From: Giardia intestinalis
Taxonomy: Eukaryota
Direction: 5' to 3' (one strand)
DNA length: 64,000 nt
Assembly (NCBI GenBank): GCA_000002435.2
Contig: CM018793.1
Part shown: positions 4,206-20,864 of the stretch, piece after piece
Position numbering within the stretch: position 1 is the stretch's first letter
Layout: each line of letters begins with the position of its first letter
Program-made: the position numbers and the translations under genes
The notes under the pieces: model-generated
The model's input: the letters and a program-made list of their open reading frames with translations, nothing else
Databases searched by the model: none
Told to the model about the DNA's origin: nothing

Positions 4206-4215
4206 TGAATTTACT
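4204..4215. terminator. stop/poly(A) palindrome AGTGAATTTACT shared by convergent genes
   Basis: Stops at 4203-4205 (+) and 4214-4216 (-). Arms are AGTGAAT (+) and AGTAAAT (-). Confidence 0.55.
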
Positions 4216-7090: not shown

Positions 7091-7159
7091 TATTTATTTT
7101 CCCCACTCACACCAACCATTTGAAAGTGGAATCTGTTCTGAGAAAATAAAATGACGTAA
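7091..7159. promoter_or_regulatory. conserved bidirectional intergenic cassette (copy C1) with a 2-codon uORF ATG-ACG-TAA abutting the polB ATG
   Basis: The sequence is tatttattttcc...CCAACCATTTGAAAGTGGAATCT...GAGAAAATAAAATGACGTAAATG. Related cassettes lie at 11795-11867, 18294-18365 and 19231-19343, with an orphan at 20700-20747. Confidence 0.5.
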
Positions 7160-10100
7160 ATGGCAACCACTAGGGAACTCCTGACCATGCATCCCCAGCA
7201 GATGTCCGAGGACCAGCTCGCCCAGCTCAAGACGTCGCTCGAGACGCTCAACTACACCCAGCTCCGACAATACGTGCTCGGCCGCGTCAAGCCCCTCATC
7301 GAGAACGTCCGCAAGCACATCCAGGAGGACCCCGTCGGCTCGGTAGATCAAGTCCTCGACTTCCAGGACGGCTTCTGGTCCAAGGACCTGATCCAGCGCG
7401 TCCGCTGGAACCTCGCCCAGTTCAGGGTAAACGAGAAGAACCCCCGCAGAGTGCCGACCAGCAGAGCGAAGGAGGCGCTGGAGCTGAACTACATGACCGA
7501 CTACTCCTTCCGGCGCATCGTCTACCCGATCGTCGCAGACCTCGCCAAGGCTCTTTATCTCCGCGCAGAGGAAGCTAACCGCCGCAACACCGACGCTTCG
7601 GTGCGCTATGTCCCGCTTCTTGTCATGTTCAACCAGCAGAACACGTTCGGCTATCCGCCCCGCGTCGCCTTCCTCGTGACGCCTGCCGTCATCACGTTCC
7701 TCCGCGGATGGAAGGTCTTCGCCGACGGAGACGACGCCCACCAGCACTACCTCAACGCGGTCACGAGGGACGCGGCGCAGATCCACGGCGTCCAGTCCGC
7801 AGAGCCTGGCGAGATGCTCTACTGCTTCAACTGGGACCCCATTTTCGCCGGCACAGAGAGCGACCCCGAGAACCCCCGCAACGCCATGTTCTCCTTCGGG
7901 ACGATGTACGAGCCCGTCTTCATCTTCCAGATCCAGATCATCCGCACCAGAGAGGGCCAGCGGAAGCTCATCCACCGCAGGGGAGGTATGGCGCCCTTCA
8001 CGAACGACTCGTTCTTCGACCTCACGCGCTACCAGATCGAGAAGACAGGCGAGGGCTTCAAGAACAGCAAGGACACGTGTTTCCTCTACGCCCTCAAGCA
8101 GAGCGGCGTGCTGAGCGACGACGAGATACGGGCCGCCGCCTTCCACATCAACCAGGCCTCTGTCACCTTCGCGATGATCGACGCCATCGGCAAGCAGCTC
8201 TTCGTCTGCTTCCACATGCACATGGCAGACAGGGTCGTCCTCAAGGGCGCGCAGAAGAACCGCAAGGTTCCGCCGGGCGTCGCGATCCGGAACATCCACC
8301 TGGGCTTCGACTTCAACCACTACTACATCTTCGACGAGAAGCTCCCCTACAGCAAGACGTACGTGAACAACGCAGCCGTCATGATGGAGCACCACACATA
8401 CCCCGCGAACACGAACCTGCGCGAGGTCAACGTCAGAGACACCTTCCACCCGCAGACCAGGGAGCCGACGAAGAAGGTCGTCTTCGGCTACCACCGCGAC
8501 GACGACCCCCATACATGCTCGAGTCGGGACCTCATCCTCTCGCTCCACAAGCAGGGCCTCCTCAAGCCCATCCGCTCCGACAGCCTGCTGGCCATCAAGG
8601 AGTCCTTCATCCGCGAAGAGCACTACGAGGAGGACGCGCTCAACTACTGCGAGGACCAGCTGAAGGAGATCACGCCGAAGAAGAAGACCCAGTCGCCCAA
8701 GGACGTCTGGTTCGCAGACTTCGAGACGACGACCGACGGGGACCAGCACCACCCGTTCCTCCTCTGCTTCCACGGGATCAACAACGTCACGGGGACGTAC
8801 TGGGCGAAGGACTACAACAGCATCGGGGACATGGTCCGAGCGGCCTTCAACCGCCTCGCGATGCTCAACCGGCCCCAGCTGGTGTACTTCCACAACCTCA
8901 ACTACGACGGGGCCTTCGTCCTCCCGTACTTCGACGTCAAGAAGGACAGCATCGTCACCCTCGGGGCGAGCAAGATCATCGCGTTCACGATCCATGTCCG
9001 GCTGAGCGACGACCGGAAGAACAAGCCGATCCCGATCCACTTCCGGGACTCCTACGCCCTGATCACGGCTCCCCTCAGCAAGTTCGGCAAGATGTTCAAC
9101 CTCAACGTGCACAAGGAGGTCCTCCCGTACTCGTTCTACACCCAGGACAACGTCAAGAAGCTGTGCCAGGGCTTCAAGCCGACGCTCGAGGAGTACCTCT
9201 CGTACGAGATCGAGAGCAGGAGGGAGGAGCTCGAGCAGCTGCTCCGTACGCTGCCGGAGATGCTGGTAATAGACAGGGTCGACGCCTTCAAGTACGCCCA
9301 CTACTACTGCGCAAGAGACTGCCACGTGCTCAAGGACGGGGTGATGGGCTTCAGACGCCAGCTCCTCGAGGTCACGGGCATCGACGCCTTCACATCCATG
9401 ACGCTCCCGAGCATTGCCTACAACTTCCTCATCAACGAGAAGTGCTTCGAGGGCTGCTTCAACCTCAACACGGCGCCGCTCCTCTTCGTACGCCAGTGCG
9501 TGACGGGCGGGCGCTGCATGCTCCGGTGCAACGAGAAGCAGTACGTCGAGGGCGAGGTCATGGACTTCGACGCCGTCTCGCTGTATCCGTCTGCCATGGC
9601 GCGCCTCCACACCCTCATGGGCCACCCGAAGATCGTCGACCCCGAGAAGCACGACCTCGGCTGGCTCCTCCGGCAGGACGGCTGCTTCCTCGAGATCGAC
9701 ATCGAGGTCGTCCCGAAGCAGCTCGACTTCCCCCTCATCAACAGGCAGACGGAGAAGGGGAGGCACTTCTCGAACGAGCCGGGCCCGATGTTCGCCGACA
9801 ACATCACGATCGAGGACATCATCGAGTACCACAAGGTCCCGATGAACCGGATCAGGGTCCTCCGGGGCTACTACTACGACGAGGGCAAGAACACGAACAT
9901 CCAGGCCGTCATCCGGAAGATCTTCGAAGCGCGGCTCAAGTTCAAGGCGGAGGGCAACCCGCTCGAGAGCATCTACAAGCTCATCATGAACAGCTGCTAC
10001 GGGAAGAGCATCCTCAAGCCCGTCTACAAGCGGATGAACACGGTCGACCACGCGGGCCTTGAGAGAGAGCTCCTCGACAACTCGGCCGATGTCCTCTGCT

Positions 10101-10756
10101 GGGAGCCGCTCTACGACGGCGGCCGCTTCCTCCTCAAGCAGAGCAAGCCCCTTCTGGAGGCGAACAGCTTCCCGACGTTCGGGGTCCAGGTGCTCTCGAT
10201 GAGCAAGCGCATCATGACGGAGGTGATGGCGACGGCCCAGGACCACGGGCTCCCGATCTACTACACAGACACGGACAGCATCCACATCGACAAGGCGTCC
10301 ATCGAGCCCCTCCGGAACTACTTCCACGCGCGCTTCCAGCGGGAGCTCATCGGGAAGAACCTCGGCCAGTTCCACTCAGACTTCCCCGACAGCCCCTCCG
10401 GGGAGATGTTCGTCAGCCGCTACTTCATCGGCGTCGGCAAGAAGGCATACCTCGACATCCTCCAGGACAGCCAGAACAACATGAGCTACCACGCGCGCCT
10501 CAAGGGCATCCCCGAGCAGGCGATCCTCAACGAGGCCCGGCAGCGCTGCTCCCACAACTTCCTCGGCGGGCTCTACAACCTCTACGCGGACCTCTACAAC
10601 GGCGTGCCCCAGACCTTCAACCTCATCTACGACGGCGCGGTGCGCTTCGTGCGAGACGCCAGCCTCGCCTACCGCTGCAGGGACGACTTCAAGCGGAGAG
10701 TCATCTTCGAGAGGGAGCCCGATGAGCCCCTGAACATATCAAAGCTGATGCAGTAA
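7160..10756 (+). CDS. family-B DNA polymerase of the protein-primed type (pPolB), 1198 aa, with a ~500-aa N-terminal extension
   Basis: Exo I is VWFADFETTTDG (aa ~517-527). Exo II is FHNLNYDGAF (aa ~577-586). Exo III is YYCARDCHVL (aa ~715-724). Motif A is DFDAVSLYPSAM (aa 802-813). Motif B is KLIMNSCYGKS (aa 940-950). Motif C is YYTDTDSIH (aa 1034-1042). A KKAY motif lies at aa ~1094-1097. The stop lies in AGTAAAT. Confidence 0.92.
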   Translation: MATTRELLTMHPQQMSEDQLAQLKTSLETLNYTQLRQYVLGRVKPLIENVRKHIQEDPVGSVDQVLDFQDGFWSKDLIQRVRWNLAQFRVNEKNPRRVPTSRAKEALELNYMTDYSFRRIVYPIVADLAKALYLRAEEANRRNTDASVRYVPLLVMFNQQNTFGYPPRVAFLVTPAVITFLRGWKVFADGDDAHQHYLNAVTRDAAQIHGVQSAEPGEMLYCFNWDPIFAGTESDPENPRNAMFSFGTMYEPVFIFQIQIIRTREGQRKLIHRRGGMAPFTNDSFFDLTRYQIEKTGEGFKNSKDTCFLYALKQSGVLSDDEIRAAAFHINQASVTFAMIDAIGKQLFVCFHMHMADRVVLKGAQKNRKVPPGVAIRNIHLGFDFNHYYIFDEKLPYSKTYVNNAAVMMEHHTYPANTNLREVNVRDTFHPQTREPTKKVVFGYHRDDDPHTCSSRDLILSLHKQGLLKPIRSDSLLAIKESFIREEHYEEDALNYCEDQLKEITPKKKTQSPKDVWFADFETTTDGDQHHPFLLCFHGINNVTGTYWAKDYNSIGDMVRAAFNRLAMLNRPQLVYFHNLNYDGAFVLPYFDVKKDSIVTLGASKIIAFTIHVRLSDDRKNKPIPIHFRDSYALITAPLSKFGKMFNLNVHKEVLPYSFYTQDNVKKLCQGFKPTLEEYLSYEIESRREELEQLLRTLPEMLVIDRVDAFKYAHYYCARDCHVLKDGVMGFRRQLLEVTGIDAFTSMTLPSIAYNFLINEKCFEGCFNLNTAPLLFVRQCVTGGRCMLRCNEKQYVEGEVMDFDAVSLYPSAMARLHTLMGHPKIVDPEKHDLGWLLRQDGCFLEIDIEVVPKQLDFPLINRQTEKGRHFSNEPGPMFADNITIEDIIEYHKVPMNRIRVLRGYYYDEGKNTNIQAVIRKIFEARLKFKAEGNPLESIYKLIMNSCYGKSILKPVYKRMNTVDHAGLERELLDNSADVLCWEPLYDGGRFLLKQSKPLLEANSFPTFGVQVLSMSKRIMTEVMATAQDHGLPIYYTDTDSIHIDKASIEPLRNYFHARFQRELIGKNLGQFHSDFPDSPSGEMFVSRYFIGVGKKAYLDILQDSQNNMSYHARLKGIPEQAILNEARQRCSHNFLGGLYNLYADLYNGVPQTFNLIYDGAVRFVRDASLAYRCRDDFKRRVIFEREPDEPLNISKLMQ

Positions 10757-10763
10757 ATTTACT
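10752..10763. terminator. perfect 12-bp stop/poly(A) palindrome AGTAAATTTACT
   Basis: Stops at 10754-10756 (+) and 10763-10765 (-). Confidence 0.6.
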
Positions 10764-11794
10764 TAGCGCTCCATAATCTCCTTGAACCTCCCAAAGGTTA
10801 GAGGCTCAGCATTGAAGAACTTCTTCTTCCTTGCCCACGCAGAGAGACGATCGAAGAAAGCCTCAGACGATATCTGCTTGTCCCCAATGGTAAAGCTGTA
10901 ACGACGATCATGATACTCATCAATATCGAACCAGGCGTCTGTGATCGCAAACTGACGCGTAACAGCAGCTGCCTTTATCAAACAGTACTGGCCACCGCTC
11001 CATATGGTTCCCACATGACCCGGCTCTATCGCGACAACTGGGTTGTAAATGCCCTTATGCTCGAGGAGGAACTCGTTCGTCTGCCTGATCGTGTCAAGCG
11101 CATCGACCTCGCACAGACGATGAGGATCATCCGAGGCCCTGTCCTTGATGTGGTCCTCACAGACAGCCGGGTCGATAGCGAAGCGCACATGGAAGGCCGG
11201 AAGGATGCCTGCGCGGAGCATGTAGTGGTCGATCAGGTAGTGGAGGTACTGGCCTTGCTCCTTCGTGATGTAGCCGTCACTCATCTTGAAGAGGATGAAC
11301 GCGCTAGTAGACGGCAGCCAGCGGTCGAAGATGATGAAGTCGTACTGCTGATACTCTTCGGCAAAACGGCAATGAAGAAGCTGCTTCCCCAGTGCATGGA
11401 CCACCTGCTCCTGGAACTGGAAAGCAAGCTCCCTGGGGTTCTTGTAGTACTCCTCGAGGGTGATGCCTCCGTTCTGTCCAAAGTGGTTGTCTGCCACGGC
11501 CTCCTCGATGATGGTAGCTTCGAAGCCTTGGTCGATCAGGTACTTCTTGAGATGCTTGCAGAAGGTGGACTTGCCTGCGCCGATGGGACCGTCAACAACG
11601 ATGATGCGAGGATCAATGACAACAGGCGGCACAACTCTCGAACTGAAATCGCTGAGCTTCCATACGAGGTTATCGTCCATGTTGATCCCGATGTCAACTG
11701 ACTCCAGAAAGTCTTCGACTGGCCAGTGTGATGATTTACTATCGATGAGGCCTGGCTCAGCTGGCTGGTTCTGGGGCTCGTAGTACTGGCTCAT
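10763..11794 (-). CDS. deoxynucleoside kinase family protein (dNK/dCK-like P-loop kinase) with N- and C-terminal extensions
   Basis: The start was trimmed to MSQYYEPQNQ, which follows ggaaaataaa. The P-loop is VVDGPIGAGKST. Other dNK-like motifs are IIEEAV, LEEYYKNPRELAFQFQ and IIFDRWLPSTSAF (ERS-like), plus the lid-like HIKDRASDD. Order and spacing resemble Drosophila dNK and dCK/dGK. Confidence 0.75.
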   Translation of the reverse strand: MSQYYEPQNQPAEPGLIDSKSSHWPVEDFLESVDIGINMDDNLVWKLSDFSSRVVPPVVIDPRIIVVDGPIGAGKSTFCKHLKKYLIDQGFEATIIEEAVADNHFGQNGGITLEEYYKNPRELAFQFQEQVVHALGKQLLHCRFAEEYQQYDFIIFDRWLPSTSAFILFKMSDGYITKEQGQYLHYLIDHYMLRAGILPAFHVRFAIDPAVCEDHIKDRASDDPHRLCEVDALDTIRQTNEFLLEHKGIYNPVVAIEPGHVGTIWSGGQYCLIKAAAVTRQFAITDAWFDIDEYHDRRYSFTIGDKQISSEAFFDRLSAWARKKKFFNAEPLTFGRFKEIMER

Positions 11795-11867
11795 TTTATT
11801 TTCCCAGTAGTGCACGTCTCAAGAGCCAAACCATTTTAAAGTGAATTCTCCCCACGGAAATAAAAGT
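11795..11867. promoter_or_regulatory. conserved bidirectional intergenic cassette (copy C2)
   Basis: The sequence is tttattttcc...GCCAAACCATTTTAAAGTGAATTCTCCCC..GGAAATAAAAGTATG. Confidence 0.5.
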
Positions 11868-12122
11868 ATGGCTGGCCACCTTCTCAACAGCAACGGGACC
11901 GCGAAGAACGAGAACAAGCTCTACACCCAGAAGCCGACGCCCTTCTACGACGCGGGCACGGTGCCGGTCCGTCTGTCCTCGGTACCCTTCGAGAGCCGCA
12001 ACGAGCCGATCCGCGTCCAGATCGACGAGCCGCCCAAGCAGCGCCCGCGAGCTGGTCTAGTGCGCACCCGCAAGAGGATGATCCCGAGGAACCGCTGGAA
12101 GAGGAACGGGAACAAGCAGTAA
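11868..12122 (+). CDS. small basic protein (84 aa), island-specific
   Basis: The start was trimmed to MAGHLL, which follows GGAAATAAAAGT. The C-terminus is basic (RAGLVRTRKRMIPRNRWKRNGNKQ). A paralog lies at 18366-18617. The stop lies in AGTAAAC. Confidence 0.55.
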   Translation: MAGHLLNSNGTAKNENKLYTQKPTPFYDAGTVPVRLSSVPFESRNEPIRVQIDEPPKQRPRAGLVRTRKRMIPRNRWKRNGNKQ

Positions 12123-12131
12123 ACGTTTACT
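12118..12131. terminator. perfect 14-bp stop/poly(A) palindrome AGTAAACGTTTACT
   Basis: Stops at 12120-12122 (+) and 12127-12129 (-). Confidence 0.6.
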
Positions 12132-12723
12132 TCGAGATCTCCTCGAGGAAGCGGTTGAAGGTGTTCGTCTCGGTGGAGGCGTTGAGGAAGCGCTGGATGC
12201 CGTCAGCCCACGCCTGGGCGCTCTCGTCGCTGATGCTGAGACAGGTGGCTGTGTACGTGCGCTTGTTCTTGGGAAGCCTCGAGAGCCTCACGAACTCGTC
12301 TCCGGTCTCCTCGTAGAGATAGAAGGCAGAGCGTGCTCCATCAGAAGCGCGTCTGCAGAAAGCGGTGTAGTGAGGGGCTTGCACGAACTCGTCCTCGGGT
12401 CGCTTGACGAAGCGGAAGACGACGCCCTGCTGGTTGAGCCACTTGCAGAACCAGGAGGTGACTCGCTGATAGTCCTCAGTACCCTCAGCGCACTCTGCGG
12501 TGACTCGACCGAGCAGTCTTCCGACCTGGCCGCAAAAGGACTTAAACGCGGGACTGGACGGGGCGGGAGGATTTGCCACTGGCAGAACGGGCTCGGCGTC
12601 GGCGGTCTGTCGCTGTCGGGTTCTAGAGGCAGACTTCCTATGAGTGGGCTCTCTGGAGGAAGGAATGACATCTTGAAGGAAGGGGTCCTCGGCGAAGTGC
12701 TCTGGTATGAATCCATCTGCCAT
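12127..12723 (-). CDS. hypothetical protein (198 aa), island-specific
   Basis: The protein begins MADGFIPEHF and the ATG follows aggaaaataaaataagc. A paralog lies at 18622-19230, with the C-terminal ~130 aa well conserved. Confidence 0.6.
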   Translation of the reverse strand: MADGFIPEHFAEDPFLQDVIPSSREPTHRKSASRTRQRQTADAEPVLPVANPPAPSSPAFKSFCGQVGRLLGRVTAECAEGTEDYQRVTSWFCKWLNQQGVVFRFVKRPEDEFVQAPHYTAFCRRASDGARSAFYLYEETGDEFVRLSRLPKNKRTYTATCLSISDESAQAWADGIQRFLNASTETNTFNRFLEEISK

Positions 12724-12754
12724 GCTTATTTTATTTTCCTGGGAGCCCTGTAAC

Positions 12755-12826
12755 CAGATCAGATCAGAATTGATTCCTGATCAATTCGGACGAAGCGACG
12801 ACTCCAGAAAAAAAAATAACGCTGAC
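12755..12826. repeat. partial copy of the 5' part of repeat module R (GATCA/GAATTGAT iteron-like array plus A9-TAACGCTGAC)
   Basis: Patchy match to 13702-13792 and 19809-19905. It includes the 8-bp inverted repeat GAATTGAT-tcctg-ATCAATTC. Confidence 0.6.
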
Positions 12827-12839
12827 GTGAATTCGATGT

Positions 12840-13679
12840 TTACTTTGCAAACAGCTTTACGATGTCTTCCTTGTCTCCGGCAATGGCCAACGCAAAAACC
12901 CTACCATTATTGATGTCCTTCTCCTTATCTGCCAACAAAGCAGCACAAGCAGCATGGCCATTTCTCACAGCCCACTCGAAAGCAGTACCACGGGCGTTAT
13001 TGCATAACCTGGCCTCCTTATCTAACAACAGCTTGACGATGTCTGCGTAACCACAGGATGCTGCTAGCATGAGAGCGGTCCAGCCGTCGTTATCCTTCAT
13101 GCCTGCCTCCTTCTCCGCTAATAGGTTAGCGCACTTAGTGTGACCCTTACACGCAGCCCACATGAGAGCAGTCCTACCATCTTTATTCTTCATGCCGGCC
13201 TCCTTCTCTAACAACAGCTTAACGCTGTATGCGGAATCCTTGGATGCTGCTATTATGAGAGCCGACCCGCAGCATCTCGCACATATACCGGCCTCCTTCT
13301 TCACTAGCAGGTCAACGCACTTAAAATTAAACTTACTCACAGCCCACATGAGGGCGGTCCTACCGATGACATCCTTCATACCAGCCTCCTTCTCTAACAG
13401 CAGCTTAACGCAGTCTGTATAGCCTTCGGATGCTGCTATCATGAGAGCCGTCAAGCCGTGTCCATCACTCATACCAGCCTCCTTCTCCACTAGCAGGTTA
13501 GCGCAGTTAGTATGACCCTCCCTCGCAGCCCACATGAGGGCAGTCCAGCTGTTGAAATCCCTCAGGCCAGCCTCCTTGTCTACTAGTTCCCTGACGACAT
13601 CGATGTTACCTTGCGCTGCTGCTTCTATGAGATCCCTAAAACCATATCCTGGCGACTTGTATTCTCGATAAGCCTTCAT
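12840..13679 (-). CDS. ankyrin-repeat protein (279 aa, ~8 repeats of the TALMWAA..GH..CV.LL..KEAG type)
   Basis: A regular ~33-aa ANK periodicity runs through the whole ORF. The start is ggaaaataaaatATG. The stop lies in AAGTAAAC. Confidence 0.88.
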   Translation of the reverse strand: MKAYREYKSPGYGFRDLIEAAAQGNIDVVRELVDKEAGLRDFNSWTALMWAAREGHTNCANLLVEKEAGMSDGHGLTALMIAASEGYTDCVKLLLEKEAGMKDVIGRTALMWAVSKFNFKCVDLLVKKEAGICARCCGSALIIAASKDSAYSVKLLLEKEAGMKNKDGRTALMWAACKGHTKCANLLAEKEAGMKDNDGWTALMLAASCGYADIVKLLLDKEARLCNNARGTAFEWAVRNGHAACAALLADKEKDINNGRVFALAIAGDKEDIVKLFAK

Positions 13680-13701
13680 ATTTTATTTTCCTCCCCGCCC
13701 T

Positions 13702-14161
13702 GAATCAATTAATCAGATCAGAATCAATTCGTCAGAATGGTTTGCACTTCCTGACTGCCGCCTCCCAGAAAAAAAAAATAACGCTGGCCTGCTTTCTGCT
13801 TTCGGGCTGTCTGTATGTCGCACTTCGGTGTCGTGCGGGCCCGGGGGCAGGGAGCAGACCAGGCTGGCCGGCAGCTGAACCGGGCGCGAACGCATCACAC
13901 ACATCCAAGGACAACGCGGTCTCCTCCCGGCGTGCACGGCACCACGCTGGGCGGTTCCGGGGGGAGGCCGCGATTTTTTTTGAAAATTTACAGGTTTTTT
14001 ATTCTGTTGAAAAGTAGGTAAACGAGCGCCAGCGTGTGGGAGCCTAGTGGGCGGACCGGCACACGCAGACGCACTTGTGGGGGACGCTTTCGTTTTTTTG
14101 GGCCCAGCCCCGTGCAGGCCCAAAAAAACGAAAGTGGGCACCACAAGGATATATACTACTG
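13702..14161. repeat. repeat module R, copy A (~460 bp)
   Basis: Colinear with 19809-20231. The order is a GAATCA array, A10-TAACGCT, a conserved core GTATGTCGCAC..GGTGTCGTGCGGGC, ~190 bp of GC-rich sequence, T8 and an AT-rich tract, an 18-bp-stem hairpin (14087-14134), then GGATATATACTACTG. Homology stops abruptly after this last motif. Confidence 0.85.
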
Positions 14162-17100
14162 ACGCCCGCCGTCATCACGTTCCTCCGCGGCTGGAAGGTC
14201 TTCGCAGACGGCGACGACGCGCACCGGCACTACCTCAACGCGGTTACGAAGGACGCGGCGCAGATCCACGGCGTCCAGTCTGCAGAGCCCGGCGAGATGC
14301 TCTACTGCTTCAACTGGGACCCGGTCTTCGGGGGCACTGAGAGCGACCCCGAGAACCCCCACAACGCGCTCTTCTCGTTCGGGACGATGTACGAACCCGT
14401 CTTCTTCTTCCAGATCCAGATCGTGCGCATGAAGGATGGCCAGCGGAAGTTCATCCACCGGCGCGGCGGCCTGGCCCCCTTCACGAACGACTCGTTCTTC
14501 GACCTCAACCGCTACCAGATCGAGCGGACAGGCGAAGGCTTTCGGAACAGCAAGGACACGTGCTTCCTCTACGCTCTCAAGCAGAGCGGGCAGCTGAACG
14601 ACGAGGAGATCAAGGCCGCGGCGCTCCACATCAACCAGGCGGCGGTCACGTTCGCGATGGTCGACGCGATCGGCAAGCAGCTCTTCATCTGCTTCCACAT
14701 GCACATGCCGGACAGGGTCGTCCTCCGGGGCGCACAGAAGGGCCGCAAGCTCCCGCCCGGCGTCGCACTCCGGAACATCCAGATAGGCTTCGACTTCAAC
14801 CACTACTACATCTTCGACGAGAAGCTCCCCTACAGCAAGGCGTACGTGAACCACGCGTCCGTGATGATGGAGCACAACGCGTACCCGGAGAACGCGAACG
14901 TCCGCGAGGTCAGCGTCCGGAACACCTTCCACCCGGAGACCCGGGAGCCGATGCAGAAGGTCGTCTTCGGCTACCACCGCGACGACGACCCCCACACGTG
15001 CACGAGCCGCGACCTCCTCCTCTCGCTCCACAAGCAGGGCCTCCTCCGCCCGATCCGCTCAGACGACCTCCTCGCCGTCAAGGAGTCCTTCATCCGCGAG
15101 GAACACTACGCGGAGGACAACCTCGAGTTCTGCGAGAACCAACTCAAGAAGATCGAGCCCAAGAAGAAGCAGGCCCCGCCGAAGGACGTCTGGTTCGCGG
15201 ACTTCGAGACGACGACCGACGGGGACCAGCACCACCCGTTCCTCCTCTGCTTCCACGGGGCGAACAATGTGACGGGGACTACTGGGCGAAGGACTACACA
15301 GCATCGGGGACATGGTCCAGCGGCCTTCCCGCCTCGCGACCTCAACCGGCCCCAGCTGGTTACTTCACAACCTCAACTACGACGGGGCCTTCGTCCTCCC
15401 GTACTTCGACGTCAAAAGGACAGCATCGTCACCCTCGGGGCGAGCAAGATCATCGCGTTCACATCCACATCCGACTGAGCGACGACCGGAAGAACAAGCC
15501 GATCCCGATCCACTTCCGGGACTCCTACGCCCTGATCACGGCGCCCCTCAGCAAGTTCGGGAAGATGTTCAACCTCGACGTCCACAAGGAGGTCCTCCCG
15601 TACTCGTTCTACACGCAGGAGAACGTCCGCAAGCTCGCAGAGGGCTACCGGCCGACCCTCGAGGAGTACCTCTCGTACGAGATGGAGAGCAGACGGACCG
15701 AGCTCGAGCAGCTGGTCCGCATGCTGCCGGGGATGCTCGTCGAGGACCGCGTCGATGCGCTCCGCTACGCCCACTACTACTGCGCGCGGGACTGTCACGT
15801 GCTCAAGGAGGGCGTCCTCCGCTTCCGGCAGCAGCTCCTCGAGGTCACCGGGATCGACGCGTTCACGTCCATGACTCTCCCGAGCGTCGCGTACAACTAC
15901 CTCATCAACGAGAAGTGCTTCGAGGGCTGCTTCAACCTCAACACGGCTCCGCTTCTCTTCGTGCGCCAGTGCGTGACGGGCGGGCGCTGCATGCTCCGGA
16001 ACAACGAGAAGCAGTACGTCGAGGGCGAGATCATGGACTTCGACGCGGTCTCCCTGTACCCGTCCGCAATGGCGCGCATCTACACCCTCAAGGGCCACCC
16101 GAAGGTCGTCGACCCCGAGAAGCACGACCTCGGCTGGCTCCTCCGCCAGGACGGCTGCTTCCTCGAGATAGACATTCAGATCGTCCCGAAGACCCTCGAC
16201 TTCCCCCTCATCAACCGCCAGACGGAGAAGGGCCGCCACTTCTCAAACGAGCCAGGCCCGATGTTCGCGGACAACATCACGATCGAGGACATCATCGAGT
16301 ACCACAAGGTCCCGATGAACCGAATCCGCGTCCTCCGGGGCTACTACTACGACGAGGGGAAGAACTTCGCCATCCAGACCGTTATCCGGAAGCTCTTCGA
16401 TACGCGCCTCAAGTTCAAGGCGGAGGGCAACCCCCTTGAGAGCATCTACAAGCTCATCATGAACAGCTGCTACGGGAAAAGCATCCTCAAGCCCGTCTTC
16501 AAGCGGATGAACACCGTCGACCGGGCCGGGCTCGAGCGGGAGCTCCTCGACAACTCCGCCGACATCCTCTGCTGGGAGCCGCTCTACGACGGCGGCCGCT
16601 TCCTCCTCAAGCAGAGCCGCCCGCTCCTCATGGCGAACAGCTTCCCGACGTTCGGCGTCCAGGTCCTCTCGATGAGCAAGCGCATCATGACGGAGGTGAT
16701 GGCAACGGCCCAGGACCACGCGCTCCCGATCTACTACACGGACACCGACAGCATCCACATCGACAAGCGGTCAATAGAGCCGCTCCGGAACTACTTCCAC
16801 GCGCGCTTCCACCGCGAGCTCATCGGCAAGAACCTCGGCCAGTTCCACTCGGACTTCCCCGACAGCCCCTCCGGCGAGATGTTCGTCAGCCGCTTCTTCG
16901 TCGGCGTCGGCAAGAAGGCGTACCTCGACATCCTCCAGGACAGCCAGGGCCACATGAGCTACCACGCGCGCCTCAAGGGCATCCCCGAGCAGGCGATCCT
17001 CAACGAGGCCCGCCAGCGCTGCGCCCAGAACTTCCTCGGCGGGCTCTACAACCTCTACGCCGACCTCTACAACGGCGTCCCCCAGACCTTCAACCTCATC

Positions 17101-17229
17101 TACGACGGCGCCGTCCGCTTCGTCCGCGACGCGCACCTCGCCTACCGCTGCCGCGACGACTTCAAGCGCCGCGTCATCTTCGAGAAGGAGCCCGACGCGC
17201 CCCTGAACGTCGTCAAGCTCATGCAGTGA
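14162..17229 (+). pseudogene. second pPolB copy, 5'-truncated (starts at the equivalent of aa ~173) and frame-broken around Exo II
   Basis: The 14075-15478 frame and the 14560-17229 frame together are colinear with polB aa ~173-1198. Motifs A, B, C and KKAY are intact (DFDAVSLYPSAM, KLIMNSCYGKS, YYTDTDS). A net 10 nt are missing between 15274 and 15474. There is no ATG or promoter at the 5' junction with module R. Confidence 0.85.
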
Positions 17230-17236
17230 ATTTACT
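17225..17236. terminator. stop/poly(A) palindrome AGTGAATTTACT
   Basis: Stops at 17227-17229 (+) and 17232-17234 (-). Confidence 0.55.
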
Positions 17237-18293
17237 CCATGCTGCTCTCCTCGTCGCGCGCAAGGACCTCCTGGAACTCATCAAACGACAAGGCCATCAT
17301 CTGCATGCGGCGCTTGAACGGATTGACGAACCTCCCATATGCGGTCCAATCGCAGAGCTCGTTGAAGAAGACAAACGCGTTGATCCTGCGCATCCCGATC
17401 TGGACGAAGTAGCGGCGGTCCTCGCCGAGGAAGAGAGTATTCTCGACAACGTACTGGCGCGTCACCCTCGCGGCCGCGACGAGCGAGAACTGGTTCCCCG
17501 CCGAGAAGGCCTTGCTCCACTCGGTGTCCGCTGGATGGTTCAGGTTGAAGACCGGCGTGTAGACGCCCTTGTGCTTGAGGAGGAACTCGTTCGTCTTACT
17601 CACGACCCCGAGCGCGTCCTCCTCGCACTGGCGGTGTTCCTCCTCAGCAGCGCGCTGGACGATACGCTGCGCACAGATCAGCGGGTCCGTCGCAAAGCGG
17701 ACGTGTGTCGCCGGAAGGATCCCCGCGTACGACATGTAGACGTCGATCAGGTAGTGGAGGTACATCGCCTGGCGGCCCGTAATATGGCCCTCCTGCACCT
17801 GGAAAAGGACGAACGCACTCGTCGAGGGCAGCCAGCGGTCGAAGATGACGAGGTCGTAGTCCTTGTACTTGTCCGTGAAGCGGTACTCGAGGAGCTGGTC
17901 TGCGAGAGCATGTGTGACGGCGAGCTGGAAGCGGTACGCGTTGGCGTGCGGGTCCCTGTAATACTCGTCGAGCGTGATCCCGTACGCGCTGAAGCACTCG
18001 AGCCCCACAACCTCCTCGATGACCACTGCCTTCAGCCCGCTGTCCTGGGCGTGCTCGACAAGGCGGCGGCAGAAGAGGGACTTGCCGGCCCCGATGGGTC
18101 CGTCGACGACAATCATGCGCGGATCGACGCACGCCGGCGGGATGACGGATGCGTGCCGCGCCAGGCTCAACCCGCGAAGAGTGGACAGCTTCGAGTTCAC
18201 CTCGAGCAGCTCCTCGGACACGTCGTAGTAGAGGCTCGAGTGGCGGACAAGCTCGGTCCCGGGCTGGTTCTGGGGCTCGTAGTACAGGCTCAT
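17232..18293 (-). CDS. deoxynucleoside kinase family protein, divergent paralog of 10763-11794
   Basis: The start was trimmed to MSLYYEPQNQ, which follows ggaaataaa. The P-loop is VVDGPIGAGKSL. Also present are LDEYYRDPHANAYRFQ, VIFDRWLPSTSAF and HYLIDVYM. The ORF is intact. Roughly half its residues are shared with copy 1. Confidence 0.72.
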   Translation of the reverse strand: MSLYYEPQNQPGTELVRHSSLYYDVSEELLEVNSKLSTLRGLSLARHASVIPPACVDPRMIVVDGPIGAGKSLFCRRLVEHAQDSGLKAVVIEEVVGLECFSAYGITLDEYYRDPHANAYRFQLAVTHALADQLLEYRFTDKYKDYDLVIFDRWLPSTSAFVLFQVQEGHITGRQAMYLHYLIDVYMSYAGILPATHVRFATDPLICAQRIVQRAAEEEHRQCEEDALGVVSKTNEFLLKHKGVYTPVFNLNHPADTEWSKAFSAGNQFSLVAAARVTRQYVVENTLFLGEDRRYFVQIGMRRINAFVFFNELCDWTAYGRFVNPFKRRMQMMALSFDEFQEVLARDEESSME

Positions 18294-18365
18294 TTTATTT
18301 CCTGGCGGCCTCCCCAATAAATGCCAAAGCATTTGAAAGTGAATTCTCCCGCCAAAAATAAAAGT
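18294..18365. promoter_or_regulatory. conserved bidirectional intergenic cassette (copy C3)
   Basis: The sequence is tttatttcc...GCCAAAGCATTTGAAAGTGAATTCTCCCGCCAAAAATAAAAGTATG. Confidence 0.5.
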
Positions 18366-18617
18366 ATGGCAGGCCACCTCCTCAGCAGCAAGGGGACCAC
18401 GAAAAACGAGAACAAGCTCTTCACCCAGAAGCCGACGCCCTTCTACGACGCAGGCACCGTCCCGGTCCGCCTCGCGTCCGTGCCCTTCGAGAACCGCAAC
18501 GAGCCGATTCGCGTCCAGATCGACGAGCCGCCCAAGCCCCGCCCTCGCGCAGGCCTCGTCCGCACCCGCAAGAGGCTGATCCCGAGGAACCGCTGGAAGA
18601 AGAACACGTACCAGTAA
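18366..18617 (+). CDS. small basic protein (83 aa), paralog of 11868-12122
   Basis: The protein reads MAGHLLSSKGTTKNENKLFTQKPTPFYDAGTVPVRL... About 70 of its first 79 residues are identical to copy 1. Confidence 0.55.
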   Translation: MAGHLLSSKGTTKNENKLFTQKPTPFYDAGTVPVRLASVPFENRNEPIRVQIDEPPKPRPRAGLVRTRKRLIPRNRWKKNTYQ

Positions 18618-18626
18618 ATGTTTACT
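18613..18626. terminator. stop/poly(A) palindrome AGTAAA-tg-TTTACT
   Basis: Stops at 18615-18617 (+) and 18622-18624 (-). Confidence 0.55.
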
Positions 18627-19230
18627 TCGAGATCTCCTCGAGGAAGCGAGCGAACGTGCCCGGCTCGGTCGAGGCGTTGAGGAAGCACTGGATGCCCTCT
18701 GCCCACTGCAGCGCCTGCTCGTCGGTGAGGCACGGACTTGTCGCCGTGTACGAGCGCTTGAACTTCGGGAGCCGCGACAGCCTCACTAACTCCTCCCCGG
18801 TCTCCTCTAAGAGGTAGAAGGCAGAGCGCACTCCATCTGATGCTCGCCTGCAGAAGGCGGTGTAGTGGGGCGCGCGCACGAACTCGTCCTCGGGCCTCTT
18901 GACGAAGCGGAAGATGACCCCGAGCTGGTTGAGCCACTGGCAGAACCAGGCCGTGACTCGCTCGTAGTCCTCCGTGCCCTCGGCGCAGTCGGCAGTAATG
19001 CGGCCCAGTAGTCTTCCCACCTGGCCACAGAAGCTCTTGAAGGGCGGGCCGGCGCGGGCGGATGTCTGCTGTGCGGGCTCGGGGTGCGAAGTCTGCTGAA
19101 CGGGGTCGGGGTCGGCGTGCGCTCGAGCCTTGAGGGGGCTTCGCTTGCGAGAGGATCCTCGAGGAGGGAGGGCGATGTCTTGCGTGAAGAGGTCCTCGGT
19201 GTAATGCTCAGGAATGATGCCATCTGCCAT
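18622..19230 (-). CDS. hypothetical protein (202 aa), paralog of 12127-12723
   Basis: The start was trimmed to MADGIIPEHY, matching copy 1. The core FKSFCGQVGRLLGR.TA.CAEGTEDY.RVT.WFC.WLNQ.GV.FRFVKRPEDEFV.APHYTAFCRRASDG is shared. Confidence 0.6.
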   Translation of the reverse strand: MADGIIPEHYTEDLFTQDIALPPRGSSRKRSPLKARAHADPDPVQQTSHPEPAQQTSARAGPPFKSFCGQVGRLLGRITADCAEGTEDYERVTAWFCQWLNQLGVIFRFVKRPEDEFVRAPHYTAFCRRASDGVRSAFYLLEETGEELVRLSRLPKFKRSYTATSPCLTDEQALQWAEGIQCFLNASTEPGTFARFLEEISK

Positions 19231-19343
19231 GCGTCCTTTTATTTTCTTGACGCTCCTATCATAAAGACGCAAACCATTTCAAATCCACTTCTACCAAACA
19301 ATATTAAATTCACTTCCTTCCGGCGTCTGCAGAAAAAAAAAAA

Positions 19344-19787
19344 ATGCTGGACCTCCGCAAGCTTAACAAGGAGGACTTCGAGCAGGCCATAGCCACCTTC
19401 ATCGAGCGTGCTCTTGACCTCGAACGGCCGGAAGATCTGAACAAAGACGAGCCGATTTATAACAGAAGCTATCTCCAGATCGACCCCGTCACGCACGGAG
19501 AGTATAACCTCACCCCGGCCGTTCTCTGGTCGCTGATAGTTATGACACTGACCTCCTATGGCCTTACAATGTTTACTGAGGACGACTGTCTTTGCGTGCA
19601 ATATGGCAAAATATACAAGTTTCCCATCGAGCCGGCAGACGAAGACGTTCTCAGAGAGATACACTATGCCATACACGTTGAAGCGACAGAAGACTTGGAA
19701 CTCTTCCCCCAGACCGAAGAGGAGATCGTGGCAGCGTTCAAACAGATACTTGGCGGACAGATAGAATTCCACATCCGACCCAAGTAA
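19344..19787 (+). CDS. hypothetical acidic protein (147 aa), found only in unit 2
   Basis: The ATG directly follows an ~11-nt A-run. The stop lies in AAGTAAAC. No paralog is present in unit 1. It occupies the slot held by the ankyrin gene in unit 1. Confidence 0.5.
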   Translation: MLDLRKLNKEDFEQAIATFIERALDLERPEDLNKDEPIYNRSYLQIDPVTHGEYNLTPAVLWSLIVMTLTSYGLTMFTEDDCLCVQYGKIYKFPIEPADEDVLREIHYAIHVEATEDLELFPQTEEEIVAAFKQILGGQIEFHIRPK

Positions 19788-19808
19788 ACCTGCGCTCCTC
19801 GGTCATGC

Positions 19809-20231
19809 GAATCAATTCCCGAATCAGAATCAAATCAAAATCAATTCGTCACAATTAATTGCACGAGGGGTCTCACAGGGCTCAGAAAAAAAAAATTACG
19901 CTGACCTGCCGGGCTGTCTGTATGTCGCACCTCGGTGTCGTGCGGGCCCGACAGGCTGGCTGGCTGGCCGGCAGCTGAACTGAGCCTCGAACGTACCACA
20001 CCCACAACGCGTCTCCTCCCGGCGTGCACAGTTCACGCTGGGCGGTTCCGGGGGGAGGCGCGTTTTTTTTAGAAAAATTACAGGTTTTTTATTCTATCAA
20101 AAATCATAATGTTTGGACGGGAGATTGCAGCAGGGAGAACAAAATCGCGGCGGTCGTTTTCGTTTTTTTGGGTAAGGCCCCCGGCCGGCCCAAAAAAACG
20201 AAAGCGGGCGCCTCGAGGATATATACTACTG
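19809..20231. repeat. repeat module R, copy B (~423 bp)
   Basis: Same element order as copy A: GAATCA array, A10-TTACGCT, GTATGTCGCACCTCGGTGTCGTGCGGGC, GC-rich core, T8, hairpin at 20158-20203, GGATATATACTACTG. Confidence 0.85.
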
Positions 20232-20359
20232 GCGTGCTCCCTGTAGAGGTGATCGCGCTCTCTACGTTGATCGAGCACGATATTGTACAACTTCTTCACT
20301 TTGAGGTTGCGGCGCCTTATTTGGGTTCTAGCTCGTTCAAAGAGCTCCCCGTCGGTTCT

Positions 20360-20445
20360 AACAGGCCCCAGCTCGTCCACTTCCACAGCCTCAACTACGA
20401 CGGGGCTTTCATCCTTCGACATCAAGGAGGACTCCATCGTCACCG
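20360..20445 (+). pseudogene. third, isolated pPolB fragment covering only the Exo II region
   Basis: It translates to RPQLVHFHSLNYDGAFI....DSIVT, compared with polB NRPQLVYFHNLNYDGAFVLPYFDVKKDSIVT. The flanks are unrelated to polB. Confidence 0.65.
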
Positions 20446-20699
20446 CACGAGGCACCCCGCAGGTCCGGGAGGGCCCGAGCATCGGCCAATCCACGACAGC
20501 ACCAACGATGGCGAAGCAGACCCACAACCATCCCACACTCTGGGCCGGACTCCCGCCCCGCGGGCCCTACTCTGCCCCGCCGCCGCTGGCCCTGCGCCCT
20601 GGGTCGGAGCGGCGGCCCGCGCCCCCGCAAGCCTCTCGGCCGCCGGAGATGCCGCGGCGCCACGCGCTGGGCCGCCCCGGGACCCGGCGCCGTCTTCCA

Positions 20700-20800: not shown

Positions 20801-20864
20801 CCTTTCCTCAAGCCCCTCTGCGGAGGGCAGGGCAAGAGCCTGCGCGGCCTGCCCTGGGCGCTGT

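What the first reader, a model, noticed from the sequence alone, without database searches (positions are those of the whole stretch)
12724..13792. Variable cargo slot next to module R: an ankyrin gene in unit 1, an unrelated 147-aa ORF in unit 2
Seen: different genes sit between the ~200-aa ORF and the R core. Unit 1 carries a minus-strand ankyrin-repeat gene (12840-13679), bracketed by two patchy copies of the R 5' segment (12755-12826 and 13702-13792). Both copies have a GATCA/GAATCA array plus A9-10-TAACGCTG. Unit 2 instead carries a plus-strand 147-aa ORF (19344-19787) with only one R 5' segment. The ankyrin repeats are of the host-typical TALMWAA kind. Inference: a host-derived gene was captured or exchanged at a recombination-prone slot. 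Ankyrin proteins are frequent host-interaction cargo in large DNA viruses (established for poxviruses and giant viruses).
Basis: partly seen in the sequence, partly recalled or inferred. Interest (0 to 1): 0.5.

Follow-up and report, generated by a model that had tools for sequence, protein, structure and literature searches.

The report
Variable gene slot beside viral terminal repeat
The window comes from the Giardia intestinalis WB genome, and the finding is real: it is the variable gene position just inside the end repeat of an integrated ~26-kb Polinton/Maverick-like DNA virus, where one copy carries a Giardia-type ankyrin gene, a second carries an orphan gene and related copies carry nothing.

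Summary
The window is Giardia intestinalis WB. Bases 1-14160 are the right ~14 kb of an integrated virus-like element of about 26 kb. It encodes a protein-primed PolB and a dNK, and further left (outside the window) an A32-type ATPase and a weak rve-like integrase. A 5'-truncated second copy follows at 14161-20230.

"Module R" is the element's terminal inverted repeat (TIR, ~420-460 bp). Inverted copies sit at the left ends of related elements. The "R 5' segment" is the innermost ~90 bp of the TIR.

The slot between the last core gene (198 aa) and the TIR has three states:
- an ankyrin gene (WB unit 1 and a 91%-identical metagenomic copy);
- an orphan 147-aa ORF (WB unit 2);
- empty (three other lineages).

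Both cargo genes lie after a truncated inner-TIR relic that ends at the same A-run motif, and before a complete TIR. This points to end replacement or TIR regeneration by recombination, not simple insertion.

The ankyrin has the Giardia-specific 31-aa repeat and host-like codon usage. It is at most 45% identical to any known protein and is under purifying selection, so any capture from the host was old.

This is a new member of a known kind and of moderate interest.

The parts
12127..12723 (-). 198-aa gene, the last conserved core gene of the right arm. It has a variable basic N-terminus and a conserved ~135-aa C-terminal domain; its function is unknown.
   Evidence: ORF. Only five homolog clusters exist, all in copies of this element (alignment A2). 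No Pfam, PHROG or fold match.
12724..12746 (-). Island-type promoter of the 198-aa gene (GGAAAATAAAATAAGC-ATG on the minus strand).
   Evidence: The same motif lies upstream of the other element genes in the window, but not of the host genes.
12755..12826 (+). Proximal "R 5' segment". It is a relic of the inner part of a terminal inverted repeat (GATCA/GAATTGATTC array plus A9-TAACGCTGAC), truncated right after the A-run motif.
   Evidence: It shares the 20-nt string AATCAATTCGGACGAAGCGA with the empty-slot copy L005, where the same motif runs straight on into the R core.
12840..13679 (-). Ankyrin-repeat cargo gene (279 aa, nine 31-aa repeats of the Giardia Protein 21.1 type). The stop codon is embedded in AAGTAAAC, a match (from my own knowledge) to the Giardia poly(A) signal AGTRAAY.
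   Evidence: The exact protein is also encoded in two other isolates' assemblies (L001, L002). The ortholog in L004 is 86% identical at the protein level, with dN/dS 0.19.
13680..13701 (-). Promoter of the ankyrin gene (GGAGGAAAATAAAAT-ATG). It abuts the inner edge of the terminal repeat.
   Evidence: The first inward gene at the left ends of L027 and L030 has the same TIR-then-promoter-then-ATG layout.
13702..13792 (+). Distal "R 5' segment": the innermost part of the complete right TIR of unit 1 (array 13702-13735, A10-TAACGCTGGC 13769-13788).
   Evidence: Short-read contigs that carry the ankyrin gene break at 13705, as expected if the sequence outward of that point exists in a second copy.
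13702..14160 (+). Module R of unit 1, which is the right terminal inverted repeat (~460 bp). It contains a conserved hairpin box at 13803-13843, a T-rich block at 13972-14013, a 20-bp-stem palindrome at 14085-14136 and the terminal motif GGATATATACTACT at 14147-14160.
   Evidence: 72% identical to R2. Inverted copies lie at the left ends of L027, L015 and L030. The sequence after the terminal motif is different at each of the five ends examined. Hairpin folding z scores are -6.4 to -7.7.
14161..17229 (+). Unit 2 PolB, truncated at about codon 173 and frameshifted (a pseudogene). It is joined directly to the end of unit 1 at the microhomology TGACG.
18622..19224 (-). Unit 2 ortholog of the 198-aa core gene (200 aa, 66% identical).
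19225..19343 (+). Unit 2 proximal relic of the inner-TIR module: promoter, AAACCATTTCAAAT motif and an A12 run that ends in the ATG of the 147-aa ORF.
   Evidence: It has the same layout as the empty-slot spacer of L006.
19344..19787 (+). 147-aa cargo ORF (GL50803_00761), an orphan transcribed outward. Its codon statistics are coding-like, and its stop lies in AAGTAAAC.
   Evidence: It was the only hit to itself among 1.84 billion representative proteins. It always occurs in the unit 2 context, in 18 contigs.
19798..20230 (+). Module R of unit 2: a complete TIR (~430 bp). Its inner end (19798-19809, CTCGGTCATGCG) is the reverse complement of the start codon plus two codons of the first left-arm gene of L027.
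   Evidence: 97% identical, inverted, to L027 1-411. The alignment shows homology running through CGCATGACCGAG, with an 18-nt deletion of the promoter.

Best explanation
The region is the right subterminal junction of an integrated linear-type virus-like element of about 26 kb in a Giardia intestinalis WB chromosome.

Shown here:
- The element encodes a protein-primed PolB, an A32-like packaging ATPase, a dNK and a weak rve-like integrase.
- Module R is its terminal inverted repeat (TIR).
- From the outside inward, the TIR holds the terminal motif, a palindrome, a hairpin box, an A/T run (A9-10-TAACGCTG), a GAATCAATTC-type array, and then the promoter of the first inward gene.
- The space between the last core gene and the TIR is lineage-specific. 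It holds an ankyrin gene, an orphan 147-aa ORF, or nothing.
- In both occupied copies the order is: core gene, inner-TIR relic cut off right after the A-run, cargo, complete TIR.

Inferred mechanism:
- The cargo was not dropped into a fixed site. It arrived through recombination at the element's end.
- One route is that an end broken within its TIR at the A-run was healed with a terminal fragment (cargo plus TIR) from another element or from the other arm. The other route is that DNA inserted at the A-run was followed by regeneration of a full TIR by copying from the other end.
- The A-run behaves as a recurrent breakpoint.
- The slot is flanked by two promoter-like sequences that face into it: the A-run initiator of the relic and the GGAAAATAAAAT promoter borne at the TIR edge. 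An ORF in either orientation could therefore be expressed. The ankyrin uses the second; the 147-aa ORF uses the first.
- The ankyrin descends from the host's Protein 21.1 ankyrin family. It was captured long ago and has been kept under purifying selection, probably as a host-interaction factor. That function is inferred by analogy only.
For: Source genome: exact protein matches place the window in Giardia WB C6.

Element gene content:
- PolB matches PF03175 at E 5e-37, and the dNK matches Pfam dNK.
- The left arm, from the overlapping contig L010, carries a Pox_A32 ATPase that scores 25.4 bits against a cut-off of 22.8, and an rve-like protein. Five of six orthologs of that protein hit rve weakly.

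R is the TIR:
- L027 1-411 is R2 inverted, at 97% identity.
- L015 carries an inverted copy of the terminal 77 nt next to its left-arm genes.
- L030 mirrors the right end of L006.
- L031 mirrors L030 all the way to the promoter.
- The terminal motif is followed by a different sequence at each of five ends.

Slot states:
- ankyrin in WB unit 1 and L004;
- the 147-aa ORF in unit 2;
- empty in L005, L006/L007/L009 and L031.

Same breakpoint in both occupied copies:
- The relics end at A9-TAACGCTGAC (12826) and at A12-TGCTGGAC (19355).
- The two copies bracketing the ankyrin gene are homologous (z 10.9) but only 69% identical.

End copying: unit 2's right TIR carries the start codon of a left-arm gene.

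Mosaic history:
- Synonymous divergence (dS) between WB and L004 is 0.35 for the ankyrin, against 0.02-0.11 for neighbouring core genes. The identity profile along the two copies is mosaic.
- Between units 1 and 2, dNK is 47% identical and PolB 83%.

Host origin of the ankyrin: the 31-aa Giardia-type repeat, Giardia top hits, and GC3 of 0.57 with host-like codon usage. dN/dS is 0.19.

The TIR-proximal genes of the left arm also differ between lineages.
Against: - The left end of WB unit 1 itself was not retrieved. That R1 is repeated there is inferred only from where assemblies break.
- No capsid or protease gene was identified, and the integrase match is below Pfam's threshold. The class assignment therefore rests on PolB, the ATPase and the TIRs.
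- Only two cargo types were seen, so a "hot spot" rests on two events.
- The order of events (end replacement, or insertion followed by TIR regeneration) cannot be resolved from sequence.
- There is no expression evidence for either cargo gene.
- No donor paralog more than 45% identical was found for the ankyrin, so host origin rests on the repeat signature and composition.
- Higher dS in the ankyrin could partly reflect gene conversion among its own repeats.
Confidence: 0.65

Rival explanations
1. Integron-like cassette site. Under this reading the A-run/TAACGCTG motif, with the adjacent array, is a recombination (att-like) site. Gene cassettes, each carrying its own copy of the ~90-bp segment, are inserted there by a site-specific or homology-driven recombinase.
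For: Both cargo genes start or end exactly at the motif, and the motif is duplicated around each cargo. The motif and the array are conserved across diverged lineages.
Against: The duplicated copies are only 69% identical, and they differ in extent: the proximal one is truncated, while the distal one continues into the complete TIR. The two cargo genes have opposite orientations. No recombinase is encoded nearby; the only candidate is a weak rve-like gene about 17 kb away. The distal "copy" is simply the TIR, which exists with no cargo in empty-slot elements.
Confidence: 0.1
2. In-situ capture after endogenization. A host Protein 21.1-type gene was moved into the already integrated, decaying island by ordinary chromosomal rearrangement. 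Under this reading the slot has nothing to do with the element's biology.
For: The ankyrin has the host-type repeat signature and host-like codon usage. The locus is clearly a patchwork of truncated copies.
Against: The same arrangement occurs in a second lineage, L004, whose sequence after the element's end differs from WB's. The gene lies precisely between the relic and the TIR and uses the promoter at the TIR edge. It is under purifying selection. No host flanking DNA came with it. The best host paralog is 41% identical.
Confidence: 0.1
3. Differential loss. An ancestral element carried both cargo genes (or more) next to the TIR, and the present states are different deletions.
For: Subterminal deletions are common in linear replicons (my own knowledge). 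Unit 2 is visibly decayed.
Against: The empty-slot copies in three lineages are clean and mirror the left end down to the promoter, with no cargo remnants. The occupied copies carry duplicated inner-TIR material, which marks a gain. The two cargo genes share no flanking remnants of each other.
Confidence: 0.1
4. Chance or artefact. The bracketing similarity is only low-complexity A-runs and short repeats, or the arrangement is an assembly error.
For: The A-run contributes much of the alignment score. blastn at E 1e-3 did not report the pair.
Against: Beyond the A-run, the array (GATCAGATCAGAAT.GATTC) and TAACGCTG are also shared. Three independent assemblies reproduce the arrangement: L001 and L002 at 100% identity, and L004 at about 91% identity overall.
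Confidence: 0.03

Closest known systems
Polintons / Mavericks (polintoviruses) and related polinton-like viruses
   Same: A protein-primed family B polymerase (PF03175), an A32/FtsK-type packaging ATPase, an rve-like protein, terminal inverted repeats of a few hundred bp, a size of ~26 kb, integration in a protist chromosome, and lineage-specific accessory genes. The Giardia PolB was already placed among Polinton and PLV polymerases in a published tree (PMC4642659, Fig. 6 legend).
   Different: No double-jelly-roll capsid, penton or adenain-like protease gene was recognised by sequence searches. The integrase match is sub-threshold. No target-site duplication was seen. The element has a dNK gene and a strongly structured palindrome near the terminus. 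None of my paper searches returned a description of the Giardia element itself.
Terminal variable regions of poxviruses (ankyrin/PRANC host-range genes; terminal transpositions that extend the ITR)
   Same: Accessory genes of the ankyrin-repeat type lie next to the inverted terminal repeat. Gene content at the ends varies between strains. There is evidence of copying from one end to the other, in the relic of a left-arm gene start at the right end.
   Different: The genome is roughly ten times smaller and replication is presumably protein-primed rather than from hairpin ends. The ankyrin protein has no C-terminal F-box/PRANC domain; only Ank families match, and the tail after the last repeat is ~10 aa. 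The comparison with poxvirus biology comes from my own knowledge and was not tested here.
Adenovirus ITR repair and linear-plasmid end exchange
   Same: These are linear protein-primed replicons in which a damaged terminal repeat can be restored from the other end, so that the inner boundary of the repeat shifts. In adenovirus, repeated short cis-elements (packaging repeats) lie just inside the ITR; the GAATCAATTC array here has an analogous position.
   Different: Nothing here shows replication as a free linear molecule. Any role of the array in packaging or origin function is speculation. This comparison also comes from my own knowledge.
Giardia Protein 21.1 / NEK-associated ankyrin family
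   Same: The same 31-aa repeat with LLEKE(A/G)GM...G.TALM.AA...CV.LL. Every one of the best hits that carries a source name is a Giardia intestinalis or G. muris protein.
   Different: The best identity to a Giardia protein is 41%, and 45% to any hit. The protein is short (279 aa) and made of repeats only. The gene lies inside the element and uses the element's promoter type.

Membership tests
Polinton/Maverick | [quoted passage not shown] | tested here: met
   PF03175 at E 5e-37, 128 bits, residues 569-974 of the 1198-aa ORF at 7160-10756.
Polinton/Maverick | Retrovirus-like (rve) integrase | tested here: inconclusive
   The 342-aa left-arm protein (L010:11396-12424, outside the window) hits PF00665 at E 5.9e-4 with 20.5 bits, below the cut-off of 32.6. 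Five of six orthologs hit rve weakly. Catalytic residues were not verified.
Polinton/Maverick | Terminal inverted repeats | tested here: met
   The left end of L027 is R2 inverted, 97% identical over 411 nt. L015 and L030 also carry inverted copies. The left end of the WB element itself was not retrieved.
Polinton/Maverick | FtsK/A32-type packaging ATPase | tested here: met
   PF04665 Pox_A32 at 25.4 bits against a cut-off of 22.8, on L010:16037-17065. The gene lies outside the window, on a contig that is 100% identical to window 1-7536.
Polinton/Maverick | Double-jelly-roll major capsid protein, minor capsid protein and adenain-like protease | tested here: inconclusive
   Pfam, PHROGs and PDB sequence searches of the large left-arm proteins and of the 958-aa and 809-aa proteins gave nothing relevant.
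Polinton/Maverick | Short target-site duplication at the integration site | not testable with these tools
   The left junction of the WB copy lies outside the window and outside the retrieved contigs. The right end abuts another element copy.
Poxvirus-type ANK/PRANC host-range proteins | N-terminal ankyrin repeats plus a C-terminal F-box-like PRANC domain | tested here: not met
   Only Ank-type families match. The repeats fill the protein to within ~10 residues of the C-terminus.
Giardia Protein 21.1 ankyrin family | 31-aa repeat with the LLEKE(A/G)GM ... TALM.AA signature, and closest relatives in Giardia | tested here: met
   The repeat register and motifs are shared with P0002, P0003 and P0005. 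Every one of the best hits that carries a source name is a Giardia protein. No tree was built.
Integron-like or site-specific cassette system | Adjacent recombinase and precise, near-identical attachment sites flanking each cassette | tested here: not met
   No recombinase is encoded near the slot. The flanking copies are 69% identical and unequal in extent.

The most novel reading that the evidence does not exclude
The element is a live or recently live polintovirus of Giardia, and not only a fossil. Several lineages have all inspected ORFs intact. Relatives appear in many isolates and in ENA and Logan assemblies of unlabelled samples. Two contigs end at the same nucleotide inside the terminal motif. 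On this reading, the TIR-adjacent slots are expression sites, flanked by inward-facing promoters, where end-to-end copying repeatedly installs new genes. One of these is a domesticated copy of the host's own Protein 21.1 ankyrin scaffold, which the virus uses to interfere with the host's cytoskeletal or NEK signalling.
Probability: 0.25. Interest if true: 0.7.

Novelty: new member of a known kind. Interest (0 to 1): 0.4.

Why it matters
From my own knowledge, Giardia is usually described as having very few mobile elements (three non-LTR retrotransposon families) and one dsRNA virus.

This locus shows a largely intact Polinton/Maverick-like DNA element of about 26 kb. Its genes are annotated in the reference genome as ordinary "hypothetical proteins" and a "putative DNA polymerase". 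The element differs between isolates and assemblages, and it exchanges modules.

The slot itself gives a concrete, sequence-level example of how small protein-primed elements gain accessory genes: through recombination at the inner edge of the terminal repeat. It also shows a host-family ankyrin being kept by such an element.

For Giardia genomics, the practical consequence is that these genes (GL50803_3666, _16686, _00761, the PolB copies and the unannotated ankyrin) should be treated as belonging to a mobile element. As a principle of virus evolution it is not new.

Tried and rejected
- Rfam at gathering threshold and tRNA scans of the whole window found nothing, so R is not a known RNA gene.
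- A search for an inverted copy of the R end inside the window found none. The inverted copies turned up only in related contigs.
- The idea that R might be a non-coding RNA driven by the A-run was not pursued. The R 5' segments show no significant fold (z -1.7 and +1.2). The strong hairpins are better read as TIR elements.
- Structure prediction gave low-confidence models for the 198-aa protein (pLDDT 57.8) and the 147-aa protein (pLDDT 53). A Foldseek search of the first against BFVD gave no hit below E 0.001. No function was assigned to either.
- PHROGs gave only coiled-coil-type hits for the 958-aa protein (tape-measure-like, judged non-specific) and nothing for the rest.
- PDB sequence searches of the 872-aa, 773-aa and 342-aa left-arm proteins gave nothing.
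- Seven literature searches found no description of the Giardia element. The only trace is its PolB in the legend of a published tree.
- I considered and rejected the idea that the two bracketing copies are a target-site duplication. They are too long, too diverged and unequal in extent.
Full report
**1. Where the window comes from**

Ten window proteins were looked up by exact sequence. Nine are in the collection, and all nine are proteins of Giardia intestinalis WB clone C6 (ATCC 50803) on a 4.02-Mb chromosome.

- The 147-aa ORF is GL50803_00761.
- The 1198-aa ORF is annotated "putative DNA polymerase".
- The two ORFs to its left are the hypothetical proteins GL50803_16686 and GL50803_3666.

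The stretch from 8 to 22 kb has 57-63% G+C, against about 50% further right.

**2.

The minus-strand ORF at 12840-13679 is intact. It consists of ankyrin repeats (Ank_2, E 4e-61) in nine 31-aa units.

It is bracketed by 12755-12826 and 13702-13792. Each segment has a GATCA/GAATCA(ATTC) array and A9-10-TAACGCTG.

- The A-run motif is exact at 12808, 13770 and 19887, with 0.03 matches expected by chance.
- The two bracketing copies align at 52/75 identities (z 10.9), and 0 of 300 shuffles reach that score.
- They are truly patchy: blastn at E 1e-3 did not report the pair.

Unit 2 has the plus-strand 147-aa ORF (19344-19787) in the same place.

One correction to the finding. Unit 2 also has a proximal relic. 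The spacer 19225-19343 ends in an A12 run that supplies the ORF's ATG (A12-ATG-CTGGAC, a 2-mismatch match to the motif). Its layout (promoter, AAACCATTT motif, A-run) equals the empty-slot spacer of a diverged relative.

**3. What the island is**

Within the window, unit 1 carries these genes:

- a protein-primed PolB (PF03175, E 5e-37);
- a deoxynucleoside-kinase-like gene;
- an 84-aa basic protein;
- the 198-aa gene;
- the ankyrin gene;
- then R.

Unit 2 repeats this order, but starts inside PolB at the position equivalent to 7677, and its PolB is frameshifted.

The units are not simple duplicates. Protein identities between them are PolB 83%, dNK 47%, the 84-aa protein 89% and the 198-aa protein 66%.

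A short-read contig that is 100% identical to window 1-7536 extends the element about 11 kb further left. That extension carries:

- genes of 209, 773, 872, 181, 129 and 445 aa;
- a 342-aa protein with a weak rve integrase match (E 5.9e-4, below threshold, seen in 5 of 6 orthologs);
- a Pox_A32-type packaging ATPase (25.4 bits against a cut-off of 22.8).

Window genes to the left of PolB therefore belong to the element as well: GL50803_16686, GL50803_3666 and a RING-finger protein. They are syntenic with PolB in every related contig, including one only 67-76% identical. From the positions in L010 and L027 I estimate a total length of about 26 kb.

All element genes in the window share a promoter, (G)GAAAATAAAAT, directly before the ATG. 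All but the RING-finger gene at the window's left edge have a stop embedded in AGTAAA. Divergent gene pairs share an AAACCATTTnAAA spacer. Host genes in the window lack the promoter motif.

No capsid or protease gene was recognised. The best description is therefore a Polinton/Maverick-like endogenous virus, with the class assignment resting on PolB, the ATPase and the TIRs.

Yutin et al. 2015 included a Giardia intestinalis sequence in their tree of protein-primed polymerases (PMC4642659). None of my paper searches returned a description of the element itself.

**4. Module R is the terminal inverted repeat**

- R1 (13699-14164) and R2 (19818-20234) are 72% identical.
- Both end in GGATATATACTACT (14147-14160 and 20217-20230).
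- After that motif the sequence differs at each of the five ends examined. After R1 comes unit 2's PolB, after R2 unrelated DNA, L004 has a third sequence, and two ends in L015 have others.

At the other end of related elements the same sequence is inverted.

- L027 1-411 is R2 reverse-complemented at 97% identity. It runs from the palindrome through the hairpin box, the T10 run and the array, and is followed by GGGAAAATAAAAAGGACGC-ATG of a 67-aa inward gene.
- L015 has the terminal 77 nt inverted next to its left-arm genes.
- In a third lineage, the left end of L030 mirrors the right end of L006.
- L031's right end mirrors L030's left end up to the promoter.

The "R 5' segment" of the finding is therefore the innermost ~90 bp of the TIR.

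Assembly behaviour agrees with this. Contigs from six WB-like isolates run straight through R2, so R2 is single-copy and unit 2 is a solitary truncated right arm. The two ankyrin-bearing contigs stop at 13705, the inner edge of R1, as expected if R1 has a second copy at unit 1's left end. That last point is an inference.

**5. The slot in other copies**

- L004 is about 91% identical to the window overall. It has the same arrangement: relic, ankyrin, TIR.
- L005 is 87% identical to unit 2. Its slot is empty: the promoter of the 195-aa gene is followed directly by GGAATCAATTCGGAATCAATTCGGACGAAGCGA...A10TAACGCTGAC, and this continues into the R core.
- L006/L007/L009 (76% identical) and L031 are also empty.
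- The 147-aa ORF occurs only in the unit 2 context, in 18 contigs.

The TIR-proximal genes on the left arm also differ between lineages: 67 + 123 aa, 102 + 65 aa, and 136 or 161 aa.

**6. How the cargo got there (inference)**

Both occupied copies have the same grammar: core gene, inner-TIR relic cut off just after the A-run (at 12826 and at about 19355), cargo, complete TIR.

- The proximal relic of unit 1 shares a 20-nt string with the empty-slot L005.
- The distal copy resembles the unit 2/L027 type (TTCGTCAsAAT..TTGCAC).
- The two are 69% identical and unequal in extent. They are not a target-site duplication.

Unit 2's right TIR keeps homology with the L027 left end through CGCATGACCGAG (window 19798-19809, reverse strand). 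That is the start codon and two codons of a left-arm gene, with the 18-nt promoter deleted. This is direct evidence that terminal sequence has been copied from one arm to the other.

Divergence between WB and L004 is mosaic.

- Identity runs at PolB 94-100% (most stretches 95% or more), dNK 81-90%, the 84-aa/198-aa block 97-100%, ankyrin 87-94%, and the 958-aa gene 67-85%.
- Synonymous divergence is 0.35 for the ankyrin gene, against 0.02-0.11 for its neighbours.

Together these results point to recombination at the ends. Either a broken end was healed with a cargo-plus-TIR fragment, or DNA inserted at the A-run was followed by regeneration of the TIR from the other end. In both cases the A-run acts as a recurrent breakpoint.

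The slot is bounded by two promoter-like sequences that face into it. The ankyrin gene uses the GGAAAATAAAAT promoter at the TIR edge. The 147-aa ORF starts at the A-run. That the A-run acts as an AT-rich Giardia initiator is my inference from general knowledge of Giardia promoters.

**7. The cargo genes**

The ankyrin:

- Its 31-aa repeats (LLEKEAGMxDxxGxTALMxAAxxGHxxCVxL) match the Giardia Protein 21.1/NEK type, not the canonical 33-aa repeat.
- Every one of the best hits that carries a source name is a Giardia protein.
- Its GC3 is 0.57, against 0.69-0.94 for the element's core genes on this arm. Its codon usage fits host genes (0.20 bits per codon) better than the element's core genes (0.07).
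- The best host paralog is only 41% identical.
- The WB and L004 orthologs differ with dN/dS 0.19.
- There is no PRANC/F-box domain.

Host-family origin is therefore supported, recent capture is not, and function is inferred only by analogy.

The 147-aa ORF:

- It is an orphan, with one hit (itself) among 1.84 billion representative proteins.
- Its codon statistics are coding-like, and better than those of the overlapping antisense ORF.
- Its structure model has low confidence.

**8. Verdict**

The finding is real, and the data extend it. It is the subterminal accessory-gene slot next to the TIR of a Polinton/Maverick-like endogenous virus of Giardia.

Variable, host-derived and often ankyrin-type genes next to terminal repeats are a familiar theme in linear DNA viruses. 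Accessory-gene variation is also known in Polintons and polinton-like viruses. The principle is therefore known.

Two things are new here: the Giardia instance, and the base-level view of the end-recombination scars.

Main gaps: the WB left terminus, the capsid genes, expression data, and a proper ankyrin phylogeny.

Noticed in passing
window 14074-14147 and 20145-20216; L006 1-85: A 17-20-bp-stem palindrome (..ACGTTTTTTTGGG...CCCAAAAAAACGT..) lies 10-30 nt from the element's terminus. It folds far better than shuffled sequence (z -6.4 to -7.7). In three lineages the stem is extended by different flanking sequences that still pair, which suggests selection for a hairpin, a cruciform or a symmetric binding site.
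   Followed up: partly
window 14158-14164 versus 7672-7685: The end of unit 1 (..ACTACTGACG) is joined to unit 2's PolB at codon ~173 (..GTGACGCCTGCC in the intact copy), through a 5-nt microhomology, TGACG. This could be microhomology-mediated joining of two linear copies, or a nested insertion of unit 1 into a resident copy's PolB.
   Followed up: no
window 14161-17229: Unit 2's PolB is 5'-truncated and frameshifted near 15270-15480. The dNK, 84-aa, 200-aa and 147-aa ORFs downstream remain open.
   Followed up: partly
window 20231-21200: Beyond R2 lies a patchwork of further element debris: a 90-nt PolB fragment (20360-20444), a promoter plus hairpin-box stretch (20700-20860) that resembles the TIR of the diverged L006 lineage (76% identity), and an inverted promoter with an AATCAATTC array (21100-21165). 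The stretch 21200-24300 is G+C-rich and I found no convincing gene in it.
   Followed up: partly
window 10763-11794 versus 17232-18290: The two dNK-like genes are only 47% identical at the protein level, while the flanking PolB and 84-aa genes are 83-89% identical. The same gene is also the divergent block between WB and L004. This looks like modular exchange or very fast evolution of the kinase.
   Followed up: partly
window 12108-12135, 10748-10775, 4196-4222, 1183-1212: Convergent element genes end in overlapping palindromic AGTAAA(N)TTTACT sequences, so that one short palindrome gives each strand a stop embedded in AGTAAA. From my own knowledge this matches the Giardia poly(A) signal AGTRAAY.
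   Followed up: no
window 8-607 (minus strand): The element encodes a 199-aa protein with a C3HC4 RING-finger match (precomputed Pfam hits shown). This could be a ubiquitin-ligase-type accessory gene.
   Followed up: no
L006 1-25 and L009 1-25 (ENA ERZ27257999 and Logan SRR14842396): Two assemblies of a diverged relative end at the same nucleotide inside the terminal motif. The first is a 24.3-kb contig. This could mark a free linear genome end, or simply a shared assembly break, and the two may derive from the same sample.
   Followed up: no
L014 (ENA ERZ27287779 k141_64424, 19.9 kb): A more distant relative (ATPase 61% identical) with its own protein-primed PolB (1148 aa), dNK/thymidylate-kinase-like gene and A32 ATPase in a different gene order. 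The family is therefore wider than the Giardia WB copies.
   Followed up: no
window 7536: All four retrieved short-read contigs of WB-like isolates that cover the left arm stop at exactly window position 7536. This is 141 nt before the point (7677) where the unit 1 / unit 2 PolB homology begins. The reason is unexplained.
   Followed up: no
L015 1506-1545 and 2147-2911: In this isolate a second, plus-strand copy of the terminal motif lies 1.3 kb outside the left TIR. A PDDEXK_2-family ORF lies between the two ends. This may be a solo end of another copy flanking a different mobile gene.
   Followed up: no
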